IMG/VR virus record: IMGVR_UViG_3300032116_000229
Location: 1-58,195 of that record
Length of the DNA stretch: 58,195 nt
From: a virus
Taxonomy: Duplodnaviria > Caudoviricetes
Reading direction: 5' to 3' (one strand)
The position numbers were made by a program, and so were the translations under genes. The notes beneath the pieces were generated by a model. The model worked only from the letters and a program-made list of their open reading frames with translations. It made no database searches and was not told where the DNA came from. Shown piece after piece: positions 495-51,960 of the stretch (positions are counted from its first letter, which is position 1; the number at the start of each line of letters is the position of its first letter).

Positions 495-523
495 CCATGG
501 CGGGCTCCATGGAATTACCATGG
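495..523. repeat. three phased CCATGG hexamers including CCATGGAATTACCATGG
   Basis: CCATGG at 495, 507, 518; same 17-mer as the 1.7-kb array. Confidence 0.85.
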
Positions 524-921: not shown

Positions 922-1022
922 GTGTTGTTCTCCCGTAGGTTGTGACTCATCAATCGACGGGGATATAGTCTACCCGTGACTTACGGATTGCAACGCAATC
1001 CACCCAGCTGCCTACTGACTAC

Positions 1023-1364
1023 CTAGCGAATCTTGCGGCCCAGGGTGGTCAGGTCAGCCTCCTCCGTGATGTATTGCACGGCGCCCTTGTTGAACTGCGG
1101 TGCTAATCGCTTGGATTTGGCAATAATGGCGTCCTGCACCGCTTGGGACTCTTTTGCCAACTGTACCGGGTCCATGACTGACCGCCGTGCCGGCACAAAC
1201 GGCTCGTTGGTTATCAGCGACGGAATGTTGCGGGTGGAGTCCTCGCGCTGAAAACGCGGTGGCGGCACATAAGTGCCCGTGCTCACCACCCGGACCTTAC
1301 GGGCCACCACCGCGTGCTTTTTCTTCTTGCGGCGGCTCTTGGGAACTGCCGTGTAGACGAGCAT
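1023..1364 (-). CDS. basic hypothetical phage protein (LAPQFNKGAVQYI motif)
   Basis: GAGGAG RBS before ATG 1364; C-terminal motif resembles conserved phage hypotheticals (recall). Confidence 0.7.
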   Translation of the reverse strand: MLVYTAVPKSRRKKKKHAVVARKVRVVSTGTYVPPPRFQREDSTRNIPSLITNEPFVPARRSVMDPVQLAKESQAVQDAIIAKSKRLAPQFNKGAVQYITEEADLTTLGRKIR

Positions 1365-1366
1365 GG

Positions 1367-1570
1367 TTACTCCTCGTCCTCCCACTCCTTGTCGTCGAAC
1401 GGGAAATCCGCTTCCCGAAGAGCATCCACCGCAGCTTCCGCAGGTATCACATCGCTGTCGTACCACCCGCGATAGTCCACATCGGGCAAGTCATCGCAGG
1501 TCAGGCCACAGATAGCCACGACCCTCTTGTTGACTTCGCGCATCCAGGCATCAAAAGACAGGCTCGACAT
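1367..1570 (-). CDS. small acidic hypothetical protein
   Basis: GGGAG RBS; first gene after promoter 1615-1643. Confidence 0.7.
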   Translation of the reverse strand: MSSLSFDAWMREVNKRVVAICGLTCDDLPDVDYRGWYDSDVIPAEAAVDALREADFPFDDKEWEDEE

Positions 1571-1614
1571 ACGCCTACTCCCATGTAACTCCACAGTCAT
1601 CTGACTGCCCTGAC

Positions 1615-1643
1615 AGCATAAGCGTGGCTATACCCTCCAGCAA
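1615..1643 (-). promoter_or_regulatory. sigma70-like early promoter
   Basis: TTGCTG-17 bp-TATGCT; resembles promoters at 9640 and 9991. Confidence 0.6.
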
Positions 1644-1700
1644 GGGCATAGCATTGGTAATTGCTAGGCAGTTAGTAGGCTACGCCGATAGTAGGCGGGT

Positions 1701-1815
1701 CCATGGCTGGCTCCATGGAATTACCATGGCGGGGTCCATGGCTGGCTCCATGGAATTACCATGGTCAGTCAATCCATGGAATTACCATGGCACCACTTTC
1801 CATCCCACCCCATGG
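1701..1815. repeat. helically phased CCATGG array
   Basis: CCATGG at 1701, 1713, 1724, 1736, 1748, 1759, 1774, 1785, 1810; 29-bp unit duplicated at 1701 and 1736. Confidence 0.9.
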
Positions 1816-1958
1816 CAATGGCTTTTCCACCTAGTATTCAGTCCGCCTTATGCCAATTGGACAGCAATAGGCCGTGTTGTTATTGGTAGATGTATATAAC
1901 AAGCCAACTTTCCAAAATCCGTCAGACTTTCAAAATTGCCATGGCCCAGTCAACAGCC

Positions 1959-1991
1959 AAAAAACTCCCCACTGGACTGACCAACAGGGAG
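1959..1991 (-). terminator. Rho-independent terminator closing the putative ncRNA
   Basis: minus strand CTCCCTGTTGG-tcagt-CCAGTGGGGAG-TTTTTT (stem with G-U pairs, then U6). Confidence 0.7.
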
Positions 1992-2262
1992 AAACGGCTT
2001 CCTAAGGGAAAACGGCAGAATTAAGGGAATCAGGCGCTTAAGCCCAATTCAGACTCGGCTGCGGTGATGCACAGAGTGAGTCACCAACTCTGAGGGATTC
2101 ATCACCGCAGCCGTCAGTCTACGACAGGCCCCATTTATCTCCACTTAGGGAGGGGGCGGACCGCCGTCTCTTAACCAGCAAAGACCAGAAGGGATGGGGT
2201 TTCTGGTAGCGGCCAGGGGTCTAGGAGCAATCTATTACCCGGCCTCCTTTGCTTGTCTCGAT
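1959..2262 (-). ncRNA. putative ~300-nt structured non-coding RNA of unknown class
   Basis: bounded by a promoter and a terminator; no credible ORF; nested stems including a perfect 14-bp helix 2056-2069/2100-2113; G-U pairs favour the minus strand. Confidence 0.6.
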
Positions 2263-2268
2263 GTTGAT

Positions 2269-2297
2269 AATTTAAACACCCCAGAACTGGATGTCTA
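2269..2297 (-). promoter_or_regulatory. sigma70-like promoter of the putative ncRNA
   Basis: TAGACA (2297-2292)-17 bp-TAAATT (2274-2269). Confidence 0.6.
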
Positions 2298-2489
2298 TCG
2301 GTAGTTGATTGGCAGATTTCAGAAAAACGACCATGGAAGCCATGAAAAATTTTAAAACTACACTACTTTCCATGGTGCACATTACCTGGCCTAACTTTTA
2401 TGGACTGGTGGGTTGGGAATAGCATGGTAAAAGACAAGTGGTGATGGATTTGAGGAGAAGTGGGTGGAATCGGCCAGTCCGGCGACTTT

Positions 2490-2660
2490 CTTTACCAAGT
2501 CTTAATTGCTTACCAACGCTTCTACTCTCTTTACCAGCCCTCTAACTACTCCTACCCCACCTACTCTGTTCTATCTACCTATCTCTTACTGTCTATGGGT
2601 GGTCTTAACCTTGTACCTATCTCTTACTGGGTGACCTATCTACTCCCTTACCGTGGTCAT
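2490..2660. repeat. C/T-rich strand-skewed tract with a 16-bp direct repeat
   Basis: TACCTATCTCTTACTG at 2576-2591 and 2614-2629; G-poor plus strand. Confidence 0.7.
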
Positions 2661-3037
2661 CTTGCTGGTTTGCTACTGCTGGTGAAGTGCAATTTGTTAC
2701 CTTGGTGTTCCCTGCTTATTGCTTTGGCGTTAACTTGAATCTGGTGCTTTGGGTTGCTTGGAACTCGCTTTGATTCCTGCATTTTGAAAAGATGGAAATT
2801 ACCAACTCGGGCTTTGATTGGCTTGAATAACAATCTTGGAAAACCCTGCTGATTGGCTCATTCGATTGGCAGTGAAAGACTGTCCTTATACTTGACTGTC
2901 ATGGTGCTTGTTTCTTACCTATCTAGATGCTGCGCTTGTAGCCACGGCTTAAGTTGACTTTTGGTAATAGGCTGATACTAGAAGGCTTTTAGGCATTTCT
3001 ATAAGATGCTTTGGCGATTTTGGTACGGGCTTATTAG

Positions 3038-3113
3038 AAGCCCGGTGGGGCTAGGTGTGGGGTGGGGCGCGGGTAGGGTAGCGGGGGCTGCTACACCTAG
3101 TCACCTGGGGCTT
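3038..3113 (+). other. imperfect hairpin enclosing a G-quadruplex-capable loop
   Basis: CTAGGTGTGG (3051-3060)/CTACACCTAG (3091-3100) arms around multiple GGG+ tracts; G-tracts continue to ~3190. Confidence 0.55.
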
Positions 3114-3229
3114 TAGCGTGCGTTTGGGGCGTTGGTGCGTGGGTGGGTTTGGGGTTGGGTACGGGTGCGTTGGAGGGGTGGGTTATGGGCGTTCCATGGC
3201 GTTGTTGTGGGCGATATTGGCGGGCGGGT

Positions 3230-3580
3230 TTAGGAGTCCGCCAACTTGAGCAGCCGGTCGATTCTGTAGGTCAGACGGACCGCTTCGTCATCTCCGCCTG
3301 CTGCCGTTTCAGCAATCCCGGACATATAGTCCCTGGCGTCTCTTAGGGCGGCGAGAAGATGCGGCACTAGCATTTGCTTGGCTTGTTTATCGGCGATTGC
3401 CTCAAGCGTTTCTTGGTCGAAACTGGAAAGGTCGCCGTGGGCCAGGGCGAGGCCTTCCGCGATGCAGCCGATTGCCTCTTCTTGATTGGCATCCAGATTT
3501 TCGGGGTCTAGGCCGTCGAGTAGGTCGTAGACATCCTCGAGGATTGTGGCGATTCGATCCAGGCGTTGTTCTTGGTCCAT
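3230..3580 (-). CDS. hypothetical protein
   Basis: AAGGA RBS; 116-aa ORF ending the early operon. Confidence 0.75.
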   Translation of the reverse strand: MDQEQRLDRIATILEDVYDLLDGLDPENLDANQEEAIGCIAEGLALAHGDLSSFDQETLEAIADKQAKQMLVPHLLAALRDARDYMSGIAETAAGGDDEAVRLTYRIDRLLKLADS

Positions 3581-3593
3581 GTTTGCACTTCCT

Positions 3594-3716
3594 TTATGGG
3601 ATGCCCCGACGACTGGCGATACCTACTGTTTCGTAGGCGAGCCAAATGATGAGCGCCGCCCAAAGCAGTTGGACGAAGCCAATGATGTAGTTGAGTTGGC
3701 GGTCAGAGAGGTTCAT
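3594..3716 (-). CDS. 40-aa membrane peptide (not in ORF track)
   Basis: MNLSDRQLNYIIGFVQLLWAALIIWLAYETVGIASRRGIP; fills an operon gap. Confidence 0.55.
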   Translation of the reverse strand: MNLSDRQLNYIIGFVQLLWAALIIWLAYETVGIASRRGIP

Positions 3717-3876
3717 TGGCTGTCTCGGATGTGGCGCAGGCTGAACAGTAATAGTCCTTGAATGGCTCGCCCGTTAAGTCGGCGAGACACTCGACCTCTG
3801 GCGTTAACTTGCCGCAGCCGATGCAGACAAGACGGACCTGATGGTCAAGATAGCGTTGGACGGGGACGAGGTTCAT
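3703..3876 (-). CDS. 57-aa Zn-ribbon protein (not in ORF track)
   Basis: CIGC...CSAC; ATGA overlap with the upstream ORF; GAGG RBS. Confidence 0.65.
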   Translation of the reverse strand: MNLVPVQRYLDHQVRLVCIGCGKLTPEVECLADLTGEPFKDYYCSACATSETANEPL

Positions 3877-4265
3877 TGGCTGTCCTCATTGCGGTCTAGG
3901 TTTGCAAGGTCCGCCAGGCCTTTTTGGAAGCCCTGCTGATAGGCTTCTTGAAGTTCTGGATGCAAGGCGGCGGGGTTGTTTGGATTAGGCGTTCGCCCGT
4001 CGTAGTAACCCCTGGCGTAGCAGTAGGTCAGCTCCGCGCTAGAGATATCGTCGGCTGGGTTGGTGGGTACAACGCGGTAGTCCGTGATGTACCCACCACT
4101 CTTGCTTCTGCCAAAGCCGTGTCGTTCAGCCGTCTCTTGTAATCGCCTGGCCTCGTCTTTCGCCTCTTTGAGCGTGGCGAAAGATTTAAGCGGCTCCCAC
4201 CGATTAAGTTTCGTGTTAGCGAACCATAGGTGGCGTTCGACAGCGAATGGCGCGCTAGTCCTCAT
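3873..4265 (-). CDS. hypothetical protein
   Basis: start reassigned to MRTSAP, overlapping the end of the upstream gene; YARGYYDG and YQQGFQKG motifs. Confidence 0.7.
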   Translation of the reverse strand: MRTSAPFAVERHLWFANTKLNRWEPLKSFATLKEAKDEARRLQETAERHGFGRSKSGGYITDYRVVPTNPADDISSAELTYCYARGYYDGRTPNPNNPAALHPELQEAYQQGFQKGLADLANLDRNEDSQ

Positions 4266-8823: not shown

Positions 8824-8857
8824 AAAGAAGGGACGGGGGCCGTTAAGCCCCCGCCCC
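8824..8857 (-). terminator. Rho-independent terminator after 8875-9567
   Basis: GGGGCGGGGGC-ttaacg-GCCCCCGTCCC then TTCTTT on the minus strand. Confidence 0.65.
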
Positions 8858-15842: not shown

Positions 15843-16234
15843 GGCTTCGTCTCTCTAATTTCGTCCAGAATCTTTTGCTGCTCGGCGCGCTCAACATCCC
15901 ACGCCGCGTCCGAAGCCCACGCAGCAGCCTTCGCGGCAGACTTTGCCGCAGTCCACGCAGCAGCCTTCGCCGCACCCCACGCTGAAGCCCACGCCGCGTC
16001 CGTCTCATCGGACGCCGCATCCATCGCAGCCCACGCATCCTCCGCAGCCCACGCCGCAGCCCTCGCCGCAGCCAGTTCCTCGTCCGTCGCCTCGCCTCGT
16101 GCGTGACGCTCGGCAACATCCAGCGCGGCAATGCTTCGCGGGTCGGCCATCAGGTGCTGCACCCGTCGCGCACAGCGGACAGCAAACAGGCGCAACTGCG
16201 CGTCGGTCAGGCCGTCGAGGTTTAGGTCGCTCAC
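15839..16234 (-). CDS. Imm-5-like / Ala-Trp repeat protein
   Basis: LRLFAVRCARRVQHLMADPRSIAALDVAERHARGEATDEEL followed by AAWAA repeats. Confidence 0.75.
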   Translation of the reverse strand: MSDLNLDGLTDAQLRLFAVRCARRVQHLMADPRSIAALDVAERHARGEATDEELAAARAAAWAAEDAWAAMDAASDETDAAWASAWGAAKAAAWTAAKSAAKAAAWASDAAWDVERAEQQKILDEIRETKP

Positions 16235-41807: not shown

Positions 41808-42439
41808 GCACCTACCACCCCCTGTACTTTGGCCCTAAGCCTCTTGATTGCCGCCTGATTCTCCGGAATCAACTTGGGCAGGAGTTCGCCAAACAGAAAG
41901 CGAATGTCCATTTCAAGATTGACGGCATTGCGTCGAATTCCACGCCGATTCATTTCGGCAAATTTCCAACGAAGCGCGTTGAGTTCCGCCTCAATTTCCG
42001 GAGGCGGGCTAATCATCCACTCAATCATCTGTTCGCCGAGCGGACCCAGTTCTCTCAAGGAGTTTTCAAGGGAGTCCGTCGCCATCAACTCATCGAGTGG
42101 CGACGGGTCGTACCCAGGAAACACCTCGTGGGCATCCCCGTCCTCTTCCAACATCGAGTCCAGACTGACCGTCCTACCAACCAGCTGGCGGTCCATCTTT
42201 TTCTTGTAGTTGGCAAGGGACGAATTAACGGCGGCGCCAAGATAAGTGATGAATCGGAACCCGAGTTCCGGCTTGAATGTCCTCAGCGCGCGAACATAGG
42301 CTGTAGCCGCCTCCTGGAAAATGTCGTCAAATTCCATTGGGCGTCCAGCCATCCTGGATCTCCGGTGAGATTTCCAGGACAGCTGTGCCACAAACCGCTC
42401 GTAGTCCTCCCATTTTGGAGGCTGCGCTGGCGCTGTCAT
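41795..42439 (-). CDS. sigma70-like factor (region 2 recognisable)
   Basis: EFDDIFQEAATAYVRALRTFKPELGFRFITYL; SLD motif. Confidence 0.7.
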   Translation of the reverse strand: MTAPAQPPKWEDYERFVAQLSWKSHRRSRMAGRPMEFDDIFQEAATAYVRALRTFKPELGFRFITYLGAAVNSSLANYKKKMDRQLVGRTVSLDSMLEEDGDAHEVFPGYDPSPLDELMATDSLENSLRELGPLGEQMIEWMISPPPEIEAELNALRWKFAEMNRRGIRRNAVNLEMDIRFLFGELLPKLIPENQAAIKRLRAKVQGVVGAWNI

Positions 42440-43699: not shown

Positions 43700-45889
43700 C
43701 TACGCGGCTTTTGTCGAGTCAAGCAGCATGACTTCCAGCTGCCGCATAACGGTAGTCGGAAGCTCATCCAACTTGTTGATGACAACATGATTGCGGTAAT
43801 ACCGCTTGACGGCAGCGGACATGATGCCAATGCCGAATACTTCGATACCGCCGGACTGAATTCGCTTGACCGTCTCGGCAAGATGCCAGTCTTGTGCGGA
43901 ACGGTCGCCCTCAGCGCACGGCAGGCCGTCAGACAGGACAATCATCAGTTTGCGGGCCTCTCGACGCGCCCACAGCCGTTTGGCGGCATATTCGACCGAC
44001 TCGCCGTCAATATTGTTTGCCAGGTCAATTTCGTCATAACAAGCCATTGCGCGGCGTCGCTCTGAATTAAAGCGGCTGTTGAAAGACTTGAAGATAGGCA
44101 TATAAACAGCCTCAGACCGCGAATACTTATGGCGGTCTGCGCCTACTTCTGCAAGATACACGCCAACCTTGCTCGGCCAATTAGTGGTGAAGCCGATAAT
44201 TTCGTGCGTGATATTGAGCCTATCAAGCGATGAGGACAGGGCGAATGCCGCCTTCATAGCCAAATCAATCTTTGACCCACCCATCGAGCCAGAAAGGTCA
44301 ACAACAAGGCTGACCGCAACATCCTTAGTCCGGCTTACATACTTGCGCCTGAACAAGCGTTCGTCGCCAGTCGCAATGCGATGCAAGGCGCTTGGGTTGA
44401 TTCGGCCCGAGCGATAGCCTGGAATCATGCGGCTGTGAGAGCGGGCCGCAACAAATCGCTCCAAATGACGCTGCAAAGGCCCGATATGACTGCTAACGGC
44501 GGCCTCCATTGCAGCCATTTGCCTCAGTTGGGTCGGCACACCTGCGCGCGGACGAAACTCGGAGATATCATCCAAGTCCCTAGTAAGCGGCGTGTATCTT
44601 GACGCCGCGTGGGCCTTCTCAATCTCCTCAGCGATTTTCTTATCCATCATCGCGTCGAGGTCTTTTGCCTCCTCGATAGCCTTGATGACATCCGCAATTG
44701 ACTCTGCGATTTCGCCGTCGAGGCCCTCCTCAGAGTCCTCGTCCTCGCTCTCATCTTCGGAGTCCTCATCAGAGTCCTCATCAGAGTCCTCATCAGAGTC
44801 CTCATCAGAGTCCTCATCAGAGTCATCCTCGTCGGAGCCACCCTCAGAGTCCTCCTCATCAGAGTCCTCATCAGAGTCATCCTCGTCGGAGCCACCCTCA
44901 GAGTCCTCCTCATCAGAGTCCTCATCAGAGTCATCCTCGTCGGAGCCACCCTCAGAGTCCTCCTCATCAGAGTCATCCTCGTCGGAATCGCCCTCGTAGT
45001 CAGAGTCGTCCGCAGAGTCCTCCTCCGGATGTCCGTCCTCGGGGTGCTCGTCCTCAGACTCATCGCCGGGGCCGTCATCAGGGTCGCCGGAGTCGCCGGA
45101 GTCAGAGGCGCTAGATTTGCTGCGACGGGTGGGGCCAGAAGAATCACCATCTGCATCGGGCGTGCCGCCAGAGGTGTCCTCGCCTTCGCCTTTTTCGCCC
45201 TCCTCCTTCTCCTTCTTTTTCCTTTCCTCTTCCTCGACGCGACGCTTGAGTTCCTCAAGCCGATTGTGCATCGCAACCGCCAACTTGTAGCCGTCCTCCG
45301 AAGAATTGACGGTACGAATCCGGTCAATCAAGTCGCTGCCGATTGCCTTAATCATCGGCTCGATAGTGGGCAGGTGCGGCTTAATCAGCGCCTCGCACTC
45401 TTTCTGGCCAGACCAGAAGCGCATGAGCGGCACAAGCAGTGTGCCGAAGATTGCTTCCTTGCTGCCTGATGCAACCGCCTTAGCAAGCGGCTCCTTGAGA
45501 ATGTGCTCCTCGACGAACGACCAGGTCTTGACGAGATTCTCCTTAGAACCACCGTAAGCCTCCTTCATTTTTCGTTCGATGAAGGTGTCCTCGATGACAC
45601 CGTAGATGCTGCCGACCTTCGAGTGTCTGGCAGTTTCCACAAACTTCGCATTGCTAAACAGAATGTGCGCGCACTCGTGGTCAACGAAGCCTTGAATGGC
45701 AATCAGCAGGGCATCCGGCGCGCTGTCCGGAATGTACGGGATGTTTACCCGCTCCGGGACGAAGGTCTTGGGATGATAAGAGACATACGCCTTAGTGCCG
45801 ACCTGCGTGACTTCGACACCGCGCCCGGAGAGCAATGGCACGATTTTTGCAATTGACTCTCGGAGAATTTCTACTTTTGTGGGCTTCAC
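43700..45889 (-). CDS. CobT-like vWA protein with acidic linker
   Basis: N-terminal HECAH; D/E/S-rich linker; MIDAS DLSGS...LSDG. Confidence 0.88.
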   Translation of the reverse strand: MKPTKVEILRESIAKIVPLLSGRGVEVTQVGTKAYVSYHPKTFVPERVNIPYIPDSAPDALLIAIQGFVDHECAHILFSNAKFVETARHSKVGSIYGVIEDTFIERKMKEAYGGSKENLVKTWSFVEEHILKEPLAKAVASGSKEAIFGTLLVPLMRFWSGQKECEALIKPHLPTIEPMIKAIGSDLIDRIRTVNSSEDGYKLAVAMHNRLEELKRRVEEEERKKKEKEEGEKGEGEDTSGGTPDADGDSSGPTRRSKSSASDSGDSGDPDDGPGDESEDEHPEDGHPEEDSADDSDYEGDSDEDDSDEEDSEGGSDEDDSDEDSDEEDSEGGSDEDDSDEDSDEEDSEGGSDEDDSDEDSDEDSDEDSDEDSDEDSEDESEDEDSEEGLDGEIAESIADVIKAIEEAKDLDAMMDKKIAEEIEKAHAASRYTPLTRDLDDISEFRPRAGVPTQLRQMAAMEAAVSSHIGPLQRHLERFVAARSHSRMIPGYRSGRINPSALHRIATGDERLFRRKYVSRTKDVAVSLVVDLSGSMGGSKIDLAMKAAFALSSSLDRLNITHEIIGFTTNWPSKVGVYLAEVGADRHKYSRSEAVYMPIFKSFNSRFNSERRRAMACYDEIDLANNIDGESVEYAAKRLWARREARKLMIVLSDGLPCAEGDRSAQDWHLAETVKRIQSGGIEVFGIGIMSAAVKRYYRNHVVINKLDELPTTVMRQLEVMLLDSTKAA
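44735..44990. repeat. in-frame VNTR: 54-bp x3 plus 12-bp x5
   Basis: encodes (DSDEEDSEGGSDEDDSDE)3 and (DSDE)n. Confidence 0.9.
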
Positions 45890-51613: not shown

Positions 51614-51925
51614 TTACTCCAGGATTTCGAGGGTGAACGACTCGATGGCGTGCTTGAAGAAGATGGTCGGGTTTTCCTCGCCATCCCGGAAGAACGACAC
51701 GGTAAAGCGGTCCGACTGGCTAAGACGACCGACGTGCTCCTCACCGGAGATTGCCACGATTGTGATGCGGACATTCTTGTGCCGCAGCATATCAATCAAG
51801 GCGTCATGGCCTTCCTTGCGGTTAACTTCCTTGCGAACCGGCGACCGGCTGGTTCCATAGGCACGAACTCGACCCCGCTCGGGAAGTCCAAGTTGCTGAC
51901 GAATGGTCACGTTTTCATCACTCAT
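51614..51925 (-). CDS. hfq: Hfq-like Sm/LSm RNA-binding protein
   Basis: HDALIDMLR..VRITIVAISGEEHVGRLSQSDRFTV...IFFKHAIES aligns by eye with Hfq QDPFLNALR..VSIYLVNG..LQGQIESFDQF...VYKHAIST. Confidence 0.78.
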   Translation of the reverse strand: MSDENVTIRQQLGLPERGRVRAYGTSRSPVRKEVNRKEGHDALIDMLRHKNVRITIVAISGEEHVGRLSQSDRFTVSFFRDGEENPTIFFKHAIESFTLEILE

Positions 51926-51960
51926 GTTATTCACCCGTTACTTACTGTTTGAGACAAAAA

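What the first reader, a model, noticed from the sequence alone, without database searches (positions are those of the whole stretch)
1959..2297. Self-contained ~300-nt structured ncRNA gene candidate in a non-coding island
Seen: on the minus strand a TAGACA-17-TAAATT promoter (2297-2269) points into ~300 nt without a credible ORF, ending in an intrinsic terminator (1991-1959). The 5' domain can fold as a three-way junction: AGCAAAG (2253-2247) pairs with CUUUGCU (2183-2177) and encloses hairpins 2244-2211 and 2207-2184. A second domain is closed by GAGACGGCGG (2170-2161) pairing with CUGCCGUUUU (2018-2009). It contains hairpin 2157-2128, a long helix (5 bp + perfect 14 bp 2113-2100/2069-2056 + inner 6 bp) and hairpin 2050-2018. 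Several pairs are G-U only on the minus strand. A second copy of GCCGUUU (1998-1992) abuts the terminator, giving an alternative register and a possible switch. I recognise no tRNA, tmRNA, RNase P, 6S or intron core. Inference: a phage RNA of unknown class (protein sponge, scaffold, primer/origin RNA or packaging-related RNA), possibly a partner of the phage Hfq.
Basis: partly seen in the sequence, partly recalled or inferred. Interest (0 to 1): 0.85.

Follow-up and report, generated by a model that had tools for sequence, protein, structure and literature searches.

The report
Candidate phage small RNA with UCCCU repeats
A roughly 300-base stretch between genes of an uncultured freshwater phage looks like a stand-alone gene for a folded non-coding RNA that carries six copies of a rare C-rich motif, but no transcript or distant relative could be found to prove it.

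Summary
The described features are there. On the minus strand there is a sigma-70-like site (2297-2269), about 300 nt without a credible ORF, the named helices, and the best canonical intrinsic terminator of the window (1991-1965 plus T6). The fold beats shuffles (z -5.2 minus strand, -2.8 plus). That signal comes from the 3' half (z -5.0); the 5' three-way junction alone gives -1.9. The promoter match is at chance level, and the helix closing domain 2 has probability 0.29.

No Rfam family matches, and no homologue was found in any collection, so covariation could not be tested.

Two new points:
- UCCCU occurs 6 times in 304 nt, against 21 on the whole 58-kb strand (Poisson 2e-9).
- In a freshwater metagenome variant, the RNA plus promoter differs at 6 of 359 positions, while other parts of the same non-coding island differ by 7-11%. 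All six changes keep the fold, and two turn G-U into G-C in the terminator. The chance of that is still 0.11.

My reading is a self-contained phage sRNA gene of a new family, most likely acting through its C-rich motifs. The window also encodes an Hfq-like protein. No expression data exist. Interest is moderate.

The parts
2321..2345 (-). Terminator-like hairpin (TCATGGCTTCCATGG plus TCGTTTTTCT) just upstream of the promoter. It may insulate the unit from upstream transcription.
   Evidence: It is a pattern match only.
2288..2318 (-). 31-nt block containing the -35 hexamer. It is invariant in the metagenome variants and is also joined to other sequence in 3 runs.
   Evidence: loose ends at 2288 and 2318 in X6 and X13, and at 2288 in X17; no substitutions in 2263-2317 in X17 record 11.
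2269..2297 (-). Sigma-70-like promoter TAGACA-17-TAAATT, which would start transcription near 2262.
   Evidence: 9 of 12 matches, and the number of such sites is at chance level. The function is inferred.
1959..2262 (-). Predicted ~300-nt non-coding RNA.
   Evidence: MFE -124.5 kcal/mol, z -5.21. No Rfam hit. 6 of 304 positions differ in the X17 variant and all six keep the fold.
2177..2253 (-). 5' domain: three-way junction (closing helix plus two hairpins).
   Evidence: helix probabilities 0.86-0.97. The 5' half alone has z of only -1.87.
2128..2157 (-). Hairpin carrying CCUCCCUAAG.
   Evidence: helix probabilities 0.95-0.97.
2051..2120 (-). Long helix of 5 + 14 (perfect) + 6 bp, with an internal loop that exposes AAUCCCU.
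   Evidence: I2; probability 0.94-1.00; motif unpaired probability 0.89.
2027..2050 (-). 9-bp hairpin with loop UUAAGC.
   Evidence: The loop base 2036 varies in 3 runs.
1986..2030 (-). Three UCCCU motifs at 19-nt spacing. The first two units (TTCCCTTA..GCCGTT) are 14 of 19 alike.
1959..1991 (-). Intrinsic terminator: 11-bp stem, 5-nt loop, U6.
   Evidence: It is the only minus-strand terminator-like hit with 9 or more pairs and an unbroken T6 in the whole window. In X17, two G-U pairs become G-C and the U-run gains one U.
2190..2194 (-). UCCCU motif 1, in a hairpin loop (unpaired probability 0.83).
2147..2151 (-). UCCCU motif 2, at a stem/loop edge (0.38).
2093..2097 (-). UCCCU motif 3, in an internal loop (0.89). 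Its last U is C in X17, so the UCCC core is kept.
2024..2028 (-). UCCCU motif 4 (0.47).
2005..2009 (-). UCCCU motif 5 (0.47).
1986..1990 (-). UCCCU motif 6, buried in the terminator stem (0.01).
51614..51934 (-). Hfq-like ORF (106 aa). It is a possible partner by inference only.
   Evidence: PF17209, 28.9 bits against a cut-off of 27.

Best explanation
A self-contained gene for a ~300-nt structured, non-coding phage RNA lies on the minus strand, the same strand as nearly all genes.

Inferred course of events:
- Transcription starts near 2262 from the sigma-70-like site at 2297-2269.
- It ends at the U6 terminator at 1991-1959.
- The RNA folds into a 5' three-way junction, a hairpin, a long interrupted helix, a further hairpin and the terminator.

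Six UCCCU motifs are spread along the RNA. Two are fully exposed and three are half exposed. I propose these motifs are the working parts. The RNA would act in trans by pairing its C-rich motifs with G-rich stretches (GGGA/AGGGA, Shine-Dalgarno-like) of host or phage mRNAs or sRNAs. This is what multi-UCCC sRNAs such as LhrC and RNAIII do. The 3' hairpin with its U-tail and the U-rich stretch before it offer a landing site for Hfq, either the host's or the phage's own Hfq-like protein.

Shown by computation: the sequence features, the fold stability, the motif enrichment, and the local conservation among strains. Inferred: transcription, trans action, targets and Hfq involvement.
For: - Promoter-like site and canonical terminator on the gene strand. 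This terminator is the only minus-strand hit with 9 or more pairs and an unbroken T6 in 58 kb.
- A terminator-like hairpin at 2345-2321 precedes the promoter.
- No plus-strand promoter or terminator in 1700-2600.
- Fold z is -5.21 on the minus strand against -2.82 on the plus strand, and 10 of the pairs are G-U.
- UCCCU occurs 6 times in 304 nt against 21 on the whole minus strand. Expected is 0.11, Poisson 2e-9.
- In 762 sliding windows this cluster ranks behind only two tandem-repeat arrays.
- Three cultured relatives (335 kb) have at most 3 copies per 300 nt, and L003-L010 have at most 2.
- Metagenome variant X17 has 6 substitutions in 1959-2317 (359 nt). In the same island it has 21 of 187 in 2430-2616 and 11 of 150 in 2930-3079.
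- All 6 changes are in loops or turn G-U into G-C in the terminator. The variant's MFE structure is identical at 304 of 304 positions and 7.7 kcal/mol more stable.
- A 1-nt insertion in X17 lengthens the U-tract and would frameshift the two plus-strand ORFs that overlap it.
- An Hfq-like ORF is in the window.
- Redundant UCCC motifs that pair with a G-rich ribosome-binding region are documented for LhrC (PMC4132741, passages read).
Against: - No expression data.
- No homologue outside near-identical strains, so there is no covariation.
- Keeping the fold with 6 of 6 substitutions has a chance probability of 0.11.
- Sigma-70-like sites are at chance frequency.
- The 5' domain is not clearly more stable than shuffles (z -1.87), and z of -4 or lower is seen in 3 of 15 neighbouring windows.
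- Much of the z-score comes from one perfect 14-bp inverted repeat, which is strand-neutral and could be a DNA site.
- Only 2 of the 6 motifs are fully unpaired, and one is buried in the terminator.
- The phage's own ribosome-binding sites are GGAGG/AGGAG. AGGGA lies upstream of only 4 of 88 crude ORF starts.
- Complementarity to phage mRNAs is at chance: 21 ten-mers found, 16.4 expected.
- The X17 contigs of the diverged parts have lower depth (3.2-3.6 against 5.3), so they may come from another strain.
- UCCC-motif sRNAs are known from low-GC Gram-positive bacteria, whereas this phage's nearest cultured kin infect proteobacteria.
Confidence: 0.42

Rival explanations
1. Protein sponge or decoy. 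The same transcript works mainly by offering six UCCCU sites, plus structure, to an RNA-binding protein that recognises C-rich or pyrimidine motifs. This could be a host or phage KH- or cold-shock-type protein, or Hfq through the U-rich 3' part. The RNA would titrate that protein as CsrB/RsmZ titrate CsrA.
For: Six copies of one rare pentamer in a single RNA is the architecture of sponge RNAs. The last three copies sit at a regular 19-nt spacing. No convincing base-pairing targets exist in the phage itself. An Hfq-like ORF is present.
Against: No protein known to me binds UCCCU in bacteria (recalled, not tested). Half of the motifs are partly or wholly paired. There is no CsrA in the window. 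Hfq's known preferences, recalled as U-rich, ARN and UA, do not include C-rich sites.
Confidence: 0.15
2. Cis-acting transcript element and not a trans-acting gene. The folded region with its terminator would be the structured 3' end or insulator of transcription coming from upstream. Alternatively it would be an attenuating leader of the next operon, the DUF5419-like gene at 1600-1367.
For: All genes run the same way, so upstream transcription can enter. The promoter match is at chance. Two nearly isoenergetic registers exist for the closing helix.
Against: A terminator-like hairpin at 2345-2321 and a C-rich, G-poor stretch at 3000-3229 lie between the upstream ORF and the unit. The stop codon of the upstream ORF is 1270 nt from the terminator. 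The next ORF start is at least 359 nt beyond the terminator, behind its own CCATGG site array. Both registers leave the terminator intact. No riboswitch or leader family matches.
Confidence: 0.12
3. DNA-level element. The inverted repeat (14-bp arms), the same-orientation TCCCT/AGGGA repeats and the flanking CCATGG arrays would be protein-binding sites of a regulatory, replication or maintenance region. The nearest cultured kin border on phage-plasmid groups.
For: The 1.6-kb island is packed with repeated motifs: CCATGG x10, CCCAC x7, AGTAG x5 and TCCCT x6. The 14-bp helix is perfect and strand-neutral. RHEph10 and nickie are discussed beside phage-plasmid groups (PMC7969092, passages read).
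Against: G-U pairs and the two G-U to G-C changes make sense only for minus-strand RNA. There is a canonical terminator with a U-tract. The plus-strand fold is clearly weaker. No ParA or ParB family match exists in the window, though the record is only 53% complete.
Confidence: 0.1
4. Plus-strand RNA of CsrB/RsmZ type. Read on the other strand, the six motifs are AGGGA, which fits the ANGGA core of CsrA/RsmA sites (recalled).
For: There are six AGGGA on the plus strand. Hairpin loops are shared by both strands.
Against: No plus-strand promoter- or terminator-like site exists in 1700-2600. The plus-strand z is only -2.82. Ten pairs become A-C mismatches on that strand. There is no CsrA in the window. 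No CsrB, Rsm or related Rfam family matches at E of 10 or less. The transcript would be antisense to the whole gene array.
Confidence: 0.04
5. No function. The region would be intergenic filler that happens to fold well and to lie between chance promoter- and terminator-like matches.
For: Pattern scans are at chance frequency overall. The z-score is not unique. No homologues were found.
Against: The 55-fold motif enrichment. The lowest divergence within the island. The quality of the terminator.
Confidence: 0.12

Closest known systems
Multi-UCCC (C-rich seed) sRNAs of Gram-positive bacteria: LhrC of Listeria, and RNAIII and RsaE of Staphylococcus aureus
   Same: Several redundant UCCC-containing motifs sit in loops, in single-stranded stretches and at the terminator of one RNA. 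In the known cases these pair with G-rich ribosome-binding regions (PMC4132741, passages read; PMC2790875, listing and start of abstract only).
   Different: - This RNA is about 300 nt with six motifs, and it is encoded by a phage whose nearest cultured kin infect proteobacteria.
- It has no sequence or Rfam relationship to those RNAs.
- Only 2 motifs are fully exposed.
- No target is known, and the phage's own ribosome-binding sites rarely contain AGGGA.
Protein-sponge RNAs (CsrB/CsrC, RsmY/RsmZ, CrcZ)
   Same: One RNA of 100-400 nt carries many copies of a short motif among hairpins and ends in an intrinsic terminator (recalled general knowledge).
   Different: The motif here is UCCCU, not GGA or A-rich. 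There is no CsrA in the window and no Rfam match. The cognate protein, if any, is unknown.
Phage- and prophage-encoded trans-acting sRNAs (reviewed in PMC12197685; a lambda sRNA in 10.1101/2024.10.31.621285)
   Same: A small non-coding gene on a phage genome with its own promoter and terminator, often Hfq-associated. I saw only the search listing and the start of the abstract for both papers.
   Different: The known examples are mostly under 150 nt and come from coliphages or prophages. This one is about 300 nt, multi-domain, of no described family, and in a phage that carries its own Hfq-like gene.
6S RNA / Ms1-type RNA-polymerase-binding RNAs
   Same: A size of 180-300 nt and a long interrupted helix (recalled).
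   Different: No Rfam match to 6S or related models at E of 10 or less. The long helix has a small asymmetric internal loop and not a large open-promoter-like bubble.

Membership tests
Any Rfam 15 family (4227 models) | Score at or above the family's gathering threshold | tested here: not met
   0 matches in the whole window. In 1400-3400 at E of 10 or less there are only 5 hits, all with E above 1 and far below gathering score.
tRNA / tmRNA | ARAGORN detection | tested here: not met
   0 genes in the window.
Hfq-dependent trans-acting sRNA (functional class) | Rho-independent terminator with a U-tail of about 6 or more | tested here: met
   11-bp stem plus U6; the X17 variant has U7.
Hfq-dependent trans-acting sRNA (functional class) | Own promoter and a discrete transcript | tested here: inconclusive
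   A 9-of-12 sigma-70-like site lies at the right distance, but such sites are at chance frequency. No RNA run is listed.
Hfq-dependent trans-acting sRNA (functional class) | Binding to Hfq | not testable with these tools
   An Hfq-like ORF exists. No RNA-protein test is available.
Hfq-dependent trans-acting sRNA (functional class) | Conserved seed complementary to targets | tested here: inconclusive
   The UCCC cores are kept in the variant. There is no above-chance complementarity to the phage's own mRNAs. The host is unknown.
UCCC-motif anti-Shine-Dalgarno sRNAs | Several UCCC motifs in unpaired positions | tested here: inconclusive
   Six motifs, with unpaired probabilities 0.83, 0.38, 0.89, 0.47, 0.47 and 0.01.
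UCCC-motif anti-Shine-Dalgarno sRNAs | G-rich (GGGA) ribosome-binding sites in targets | tested here: not met
   For the phage's own genes, AGGGA lies upstream of 4 of 88 crude ORF starts and the dominant sites are GGAGG/AGGAG/GAGGA. Host genes could not be tested.
CsrB/Rsm-type sponge | GGA motifs on the transcribed strand and a cognate CsrA | tested here: not met
   AGGGA x6 is found only on the plus strand, which lacks a promoter and terminator and folds worse. No CsrA in the window. No Rfam hit.
Riboswitch / attenuator leader | A terminator close to the regulated ORF and a competing antiterminator | tested here: not met
   The next ORF start is at least 359 nt downstream. Both alternative registers keep the terminator.
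Structured RNA supported by covariation | Compensatory changes in helices among homologues | tested here: inconclusive
   Only near-identical variants are available. There are 2 one-sided G-U to G-C changes and 0 double changes. The chance that 6 of 6 changes are neutral is 0.11.

The most novel reading that the evidence does not exclude
The phage carries a matched pair: its own Hfq-like chaperone and a ~300-nt multi-site RNA. The six UCCCU motifs of that RNA would capture G-rich ribosome-binding regions or G-rich host sRNAs, or a C-rich-binding host protein, several at a time. This would be a phage-borne post-transcriptional takeover module of a family not yet described. It would be widespread in freshwater, since parts of the locus are held by runs of 19 studies.
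Probability: 0.15. Interest if true: 0.75.

Novelty: new member of a known kind. Interest (0 to 1): 0.45.

Why it matters
Few phage-encoded regulatory RNAs are known, and almost all come from coliphages and prophages of model bacteria. A long, multi-motif RNA in an uncultured freshwater phage that also encodes an Hfq-like protein would extend RNA-based host takeover to environmental phages. It would also give a concrete, testable RNA-chaperone pair. The six-fold rare motif offers a direct handle for experiments: mutate the motifs, pull down partners. If it is not transcribed, the locus is just a motif-rich regulatory spacer and is of little note.

Tried and rejected
Homologue searches, all empty for the RNA:
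- blastn against INPHARED phages.
- nhmmer and blastn on IMG/VR loci L003-L009, reached through the flanking 116-aa and 147-aa ORFs.
- Flanking proteins without usable relatives.
- DnaE gave only a 5.4-kb contig at 77% aa identity.
- A metagenome scan with the DUF5419-like protein and with a 24-mer of the RNA.
- The 31-mer promoter block in viral and genome collections.
- A 3'-module pattern in viral and genome collections.
- Single-sequence covariance models R1 and R2 found only themselves in the window plus L003-L010 and in 5 cultured relatives. The best foreign hit had E 1.5.

Other negatives:
- No RNA holder was listed among the 24 runs.
- Parts of 1000-4000 had no contig cover in some runs.
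- A coding reading is rejected. The 31-aa minus-strand ORF carries 2 of 2 non-synonymous variant changes (my reading). The plus-strand ORFs 1874-2005 and 1890-2024 are frameshifted by the X17 insertion.
- A cyanophage assignment, my first guess from the DUF5419 match, is dropped. The nearest cultured kin by DnaE are Rhizobium, Pseudomonas and Stenotrophomonas phages at about 45% identity.
- A partition locus is unsupported: no ParB or ParA match.
- The repeated complement of CCCUCAGAGU at 44850-44958 is only an acidic coding tandem repeat.
- 'phage-encoded Hfq' gave 0 papers. 'Hfq-like' plus 'phage genome' gave 2 unrelated papers.
- Supplements were not asked for.

Full report
**Context.** The window is an IMG/VR virus record of 58,195 nt, judged 53% complete. 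Nearly all ORFs of 150 aa or more that look real lie on the minus strand. They include a DnaE-type polymerase, a DnaB-like helicase, a primase, a ligase, a ribonucleotide reductase, an SbcC-like protein and CobT/CobS-like proteins. By DnaE tblastn, the nearest cultured phages are ~110-kb phages of Rhizobium (RHEph10, RHph_Y2_11), Pseudomonas (nickie) and Stenotrophomonas, at about 45% identity. SSU5-like elements come next. RHEph10 and nickie are discussed next to phage-plasmid groups (PMC7969092, passages read). The finding lies in a 1.6-kb stretch without credible ORFs. That stretch runs between a 116-aa ORF (3580-3230) and a DUF5419-like ORF (1600-1367).

**Observation.**
- The sigma-70-like site TAGACA-17-TAAATT is at 2297-2269, and the terminator is at 1991-1965 followed by T6.
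- The minimum-free-energy fold of 2262-1959 (-124.5 kcal/mol) reproduces the 5' three-way junction, the hairpin 2157-2128, the 5+14+6-bp helix and a hairpin at 2050-2027. Most helix probabilities are 0.86-1.00.
- The helix that would close domain 2 (2168-2161/2018-2011) has probability only 0.29.
- An alternative register using the second GCCGUUU is 1.5 kcal/mol worse and leaves the terminator in place, so I see no switch.
- The z-score is -5.21 on the minus strand against -2.82 on the plus strand.
- 10 of the 98 pairs are G-U.

There are caveats.
- In 150-nt windows the 3' half scores -5.04 but the 5' half only -1.87.
- Two other windows of the 15 also reach -4 or lower. One is the CCATGG array at 1659-1808. 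The other is a coding inverted repeat at 1209-1358.
- Sigma-70-like sites occur at chance frequency (4 found, 3.3 expected).
- Terminator-like hits as a whole are also at chance level. This one, however, is the only minus-strand hit with 9 or more pairs and an unbroken T6 in the window.
- A second terminator-like hairpin (2345-2321) sits just upstream of the promoter. No plus-strand signal is seen in 1700-2600.

**Known families.** Rfam 15 gives nothing at gathering score for the whole window. At E of 10 or less in 1400-3400 it gives only noise, with E above 1. ARAGORN finds no tRNA or tmRNA.

**Homologues.** None was found. Searches covered the following:
- INPHARED;
- IMG/VR through four flanking proteins, DnaE and two DNA patterns;
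- JGI metagenomes;
- GTDB genomes;
- two single-sequence covariance models run on the window, eight IMG/VR loci and five cultured relatives.

Covariation therefore cannot be assessed.

**Microdiversity.** Logan contigs of public runs hold the locus. 24 runs of 19 studies are listed, mostly labelled freshwater, and none is on record as RNA. Four runs were laid on 1000-4000.
- X13 and X6 differ from the window in the RNA only at 2036, a loop base.
- X17 has one contig spanning 1506-2317 with 23 substitutions. Six fall in 1959-2262, none in 2263-2317, and 17 plus 31 gap letters in 1506-1958.
- Other X17 contigs of the same island differ far more: 21 of 187 in 2430-2616 and 11 of 150 in 2930-3079. 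Their depth is lower, so they may belong to another strain.
- Of the six changes, four lie in unpaired positions. Two (1971, 1984) turn G-U pairs of the terminator stem into G-C.
- The variant's predicted structure is identical at 304 of 304 positions and 7.7 kcal/mol more stable.
- A 1-nt insertion lengthens the U-tract and would frameshift the plus-strand ORFs that overlap it.
- Random placement of the same substitution types keeps the fold in 11% of trials. This is consistent with an RNA under selection, but it is not proof.

**New internal feature.**
- UCCCU occurs six times in the 304 nt, starting at 2194, 2151, 2097, 2028, 2009 and 1990. There are 21 copies on the whole minus strand. Expected is 0.11, Poisson 2e-9.
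- Under Markov models trained on the RNA itself, six or more copies arise in 0.06% of simulations.
- "Some 5-mer reaches six copies" is not rare in real 304-nt windows (21 of 381). When each window is scored against genome-wide 5-mer frequencies, this cluster ranks behind only two tandem arrays among 762 windows.
- Three cultured relatives (335 kb) have at most 3 copies per 300 nt, and L003-L010 have at most 2.
- Unpaired probabilities of the six motifs are 0.83, 0.38, 0.89, 0.47, 0.47 and 0.01.
- The last three lie 19 nt apart within a loose direct repeat.
- All six UCCC cores persist in X17. One motif changes its last U to C.

**Mechanism.** Redundant UCCC motifs in loops, in single-stranded stretches and at the terminator are how LhrC binds the G-rich ribosome-binding region of its target. 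The LhrC paper lists RNAIII, RsaE and others as working the same way (PMC4132741, passages read). That is the closest working analogy, and I adopt it as the leading mechanism.

Points against it:
- The phage's own ribosome-binding sites are GGAGG/AGGAG-like, and AGGGA precedes only 4 of 88 crude ORF starts.
- Complementarity to the phage's mRNAs is at chance.
- So targets, if any, would be host RNAs, and the host is unknown.

A protein-sponge reading fits the repeat architecture equally well but lacks a candidate protein. There is no CsrA in the window. The plus-strand AGGGA reading lacks transcription signals.

The window does encode an Hfq-like protein at 51614-51934 (28.9 bits against a cut-off of 27). 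Of five cultured relatives, one (nickie) has a sub-threshold match at 23.1 bits. The RNA's terminator, U-tail and U-rich preceding stretch fit what Hfq-dependent sRNAs look like (recalled). The partnership is inference only.

**Verdict.** This is a credible but unproven gene for a phage non-coding RNA of no described family. It would be a new member of the known kind "phage-encoded sRNA". Its size, the six-fold rare motif and the co-resident Hfq-like gene make it more interesting than average. Without a transcript or covariation I put the gene-plus-mechanism reading at about 0.42 and interest at 0.45.

Noticed in passing
window 495-523, 1697-1815, 1939, 2331, 2370: CCATGG hexamers cluster here: 17 of the window's 25 sites lie in the first 3.2 kb. 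They form arrays with 11-12-bp spacing. The unit TCCATGGAATTACCATGG occurs 4 times and a 35-nt unit is exactly duplicated. The arrays sit upstream of minus-strand ORFs and look like operator arrays for an unknown DNA-binding regulator.
   Followed up: partly
window 3000-3229 (minus strand): A C-rich, G-poor stretch lies right after the stop of the 116-aa ORF. Plus-strand GC skew is +0.46 to +0.59 and CCCAC occurs 7 times. It looks like a Rho-utilisation site and may end upstream transcription.
   Followed up: no
window 2412-2715 (minus strand): A purine-rich, C-poor stretch has AGTAG 5 times and an exact 16-nt repeat (2576-2591 and 2614-2629). It is the most diverged part of the island in the X17 variant (21 of 187). 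Its function is unknown.
   Followed up: no
window 2288-2318: This 31-mer, which holds the -35 hexamer, is joined to entirely different flanking sequence in contigs of runs X6 and X13 on both sides and X17 on one side. It may be a second copy in the missing half of the genome or a recombination boundary. In the other context, a -10-like GACAAT again lies 17 nt after TAGACA; this is my own reading of the loose-end consensus. There are no exact matches in the viral or genome collections.
   Followed up: partly
window 51614-51934 (minus): An Hfq-like ORF of 106 aa lies next to the DnaB-like helicase gene. Pseudomonas phage nickie has a sub-threshold Hfq-like match (23.1 bits) at 42069-42182 of its record.
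   Followed up: partly
window 44725-44974: A perfect 54-nt tandem repeat (3.3 copies) encodes an acidic D/E/S-rich stretch inside the CobT-like gene.
   Followed up: no
window 1254-1315: A 20-nt inverted repeat (85% complementary) inside the 147-aa ORF gives a 150-nt fold z-score of -4.51. This is as strong as most of the candidate RNA.
   Followed up: no
window 15910-16073: Overlapping tandem repeats of period 12, 24 and 36 (GC-rich) lie in a coding region.
   Followed up: no
window 8830-8857 (minus): A strong GC-rich hairpin (12 bp, loop CUUAAC) is followed by TTCTTTCC. It is probably another terminator. Its GGGCUUAA loop region resembles the 2050-2027 hairpin of the candidate RNA, and model R2 hits it weakly at E 1.
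   Followed up: no
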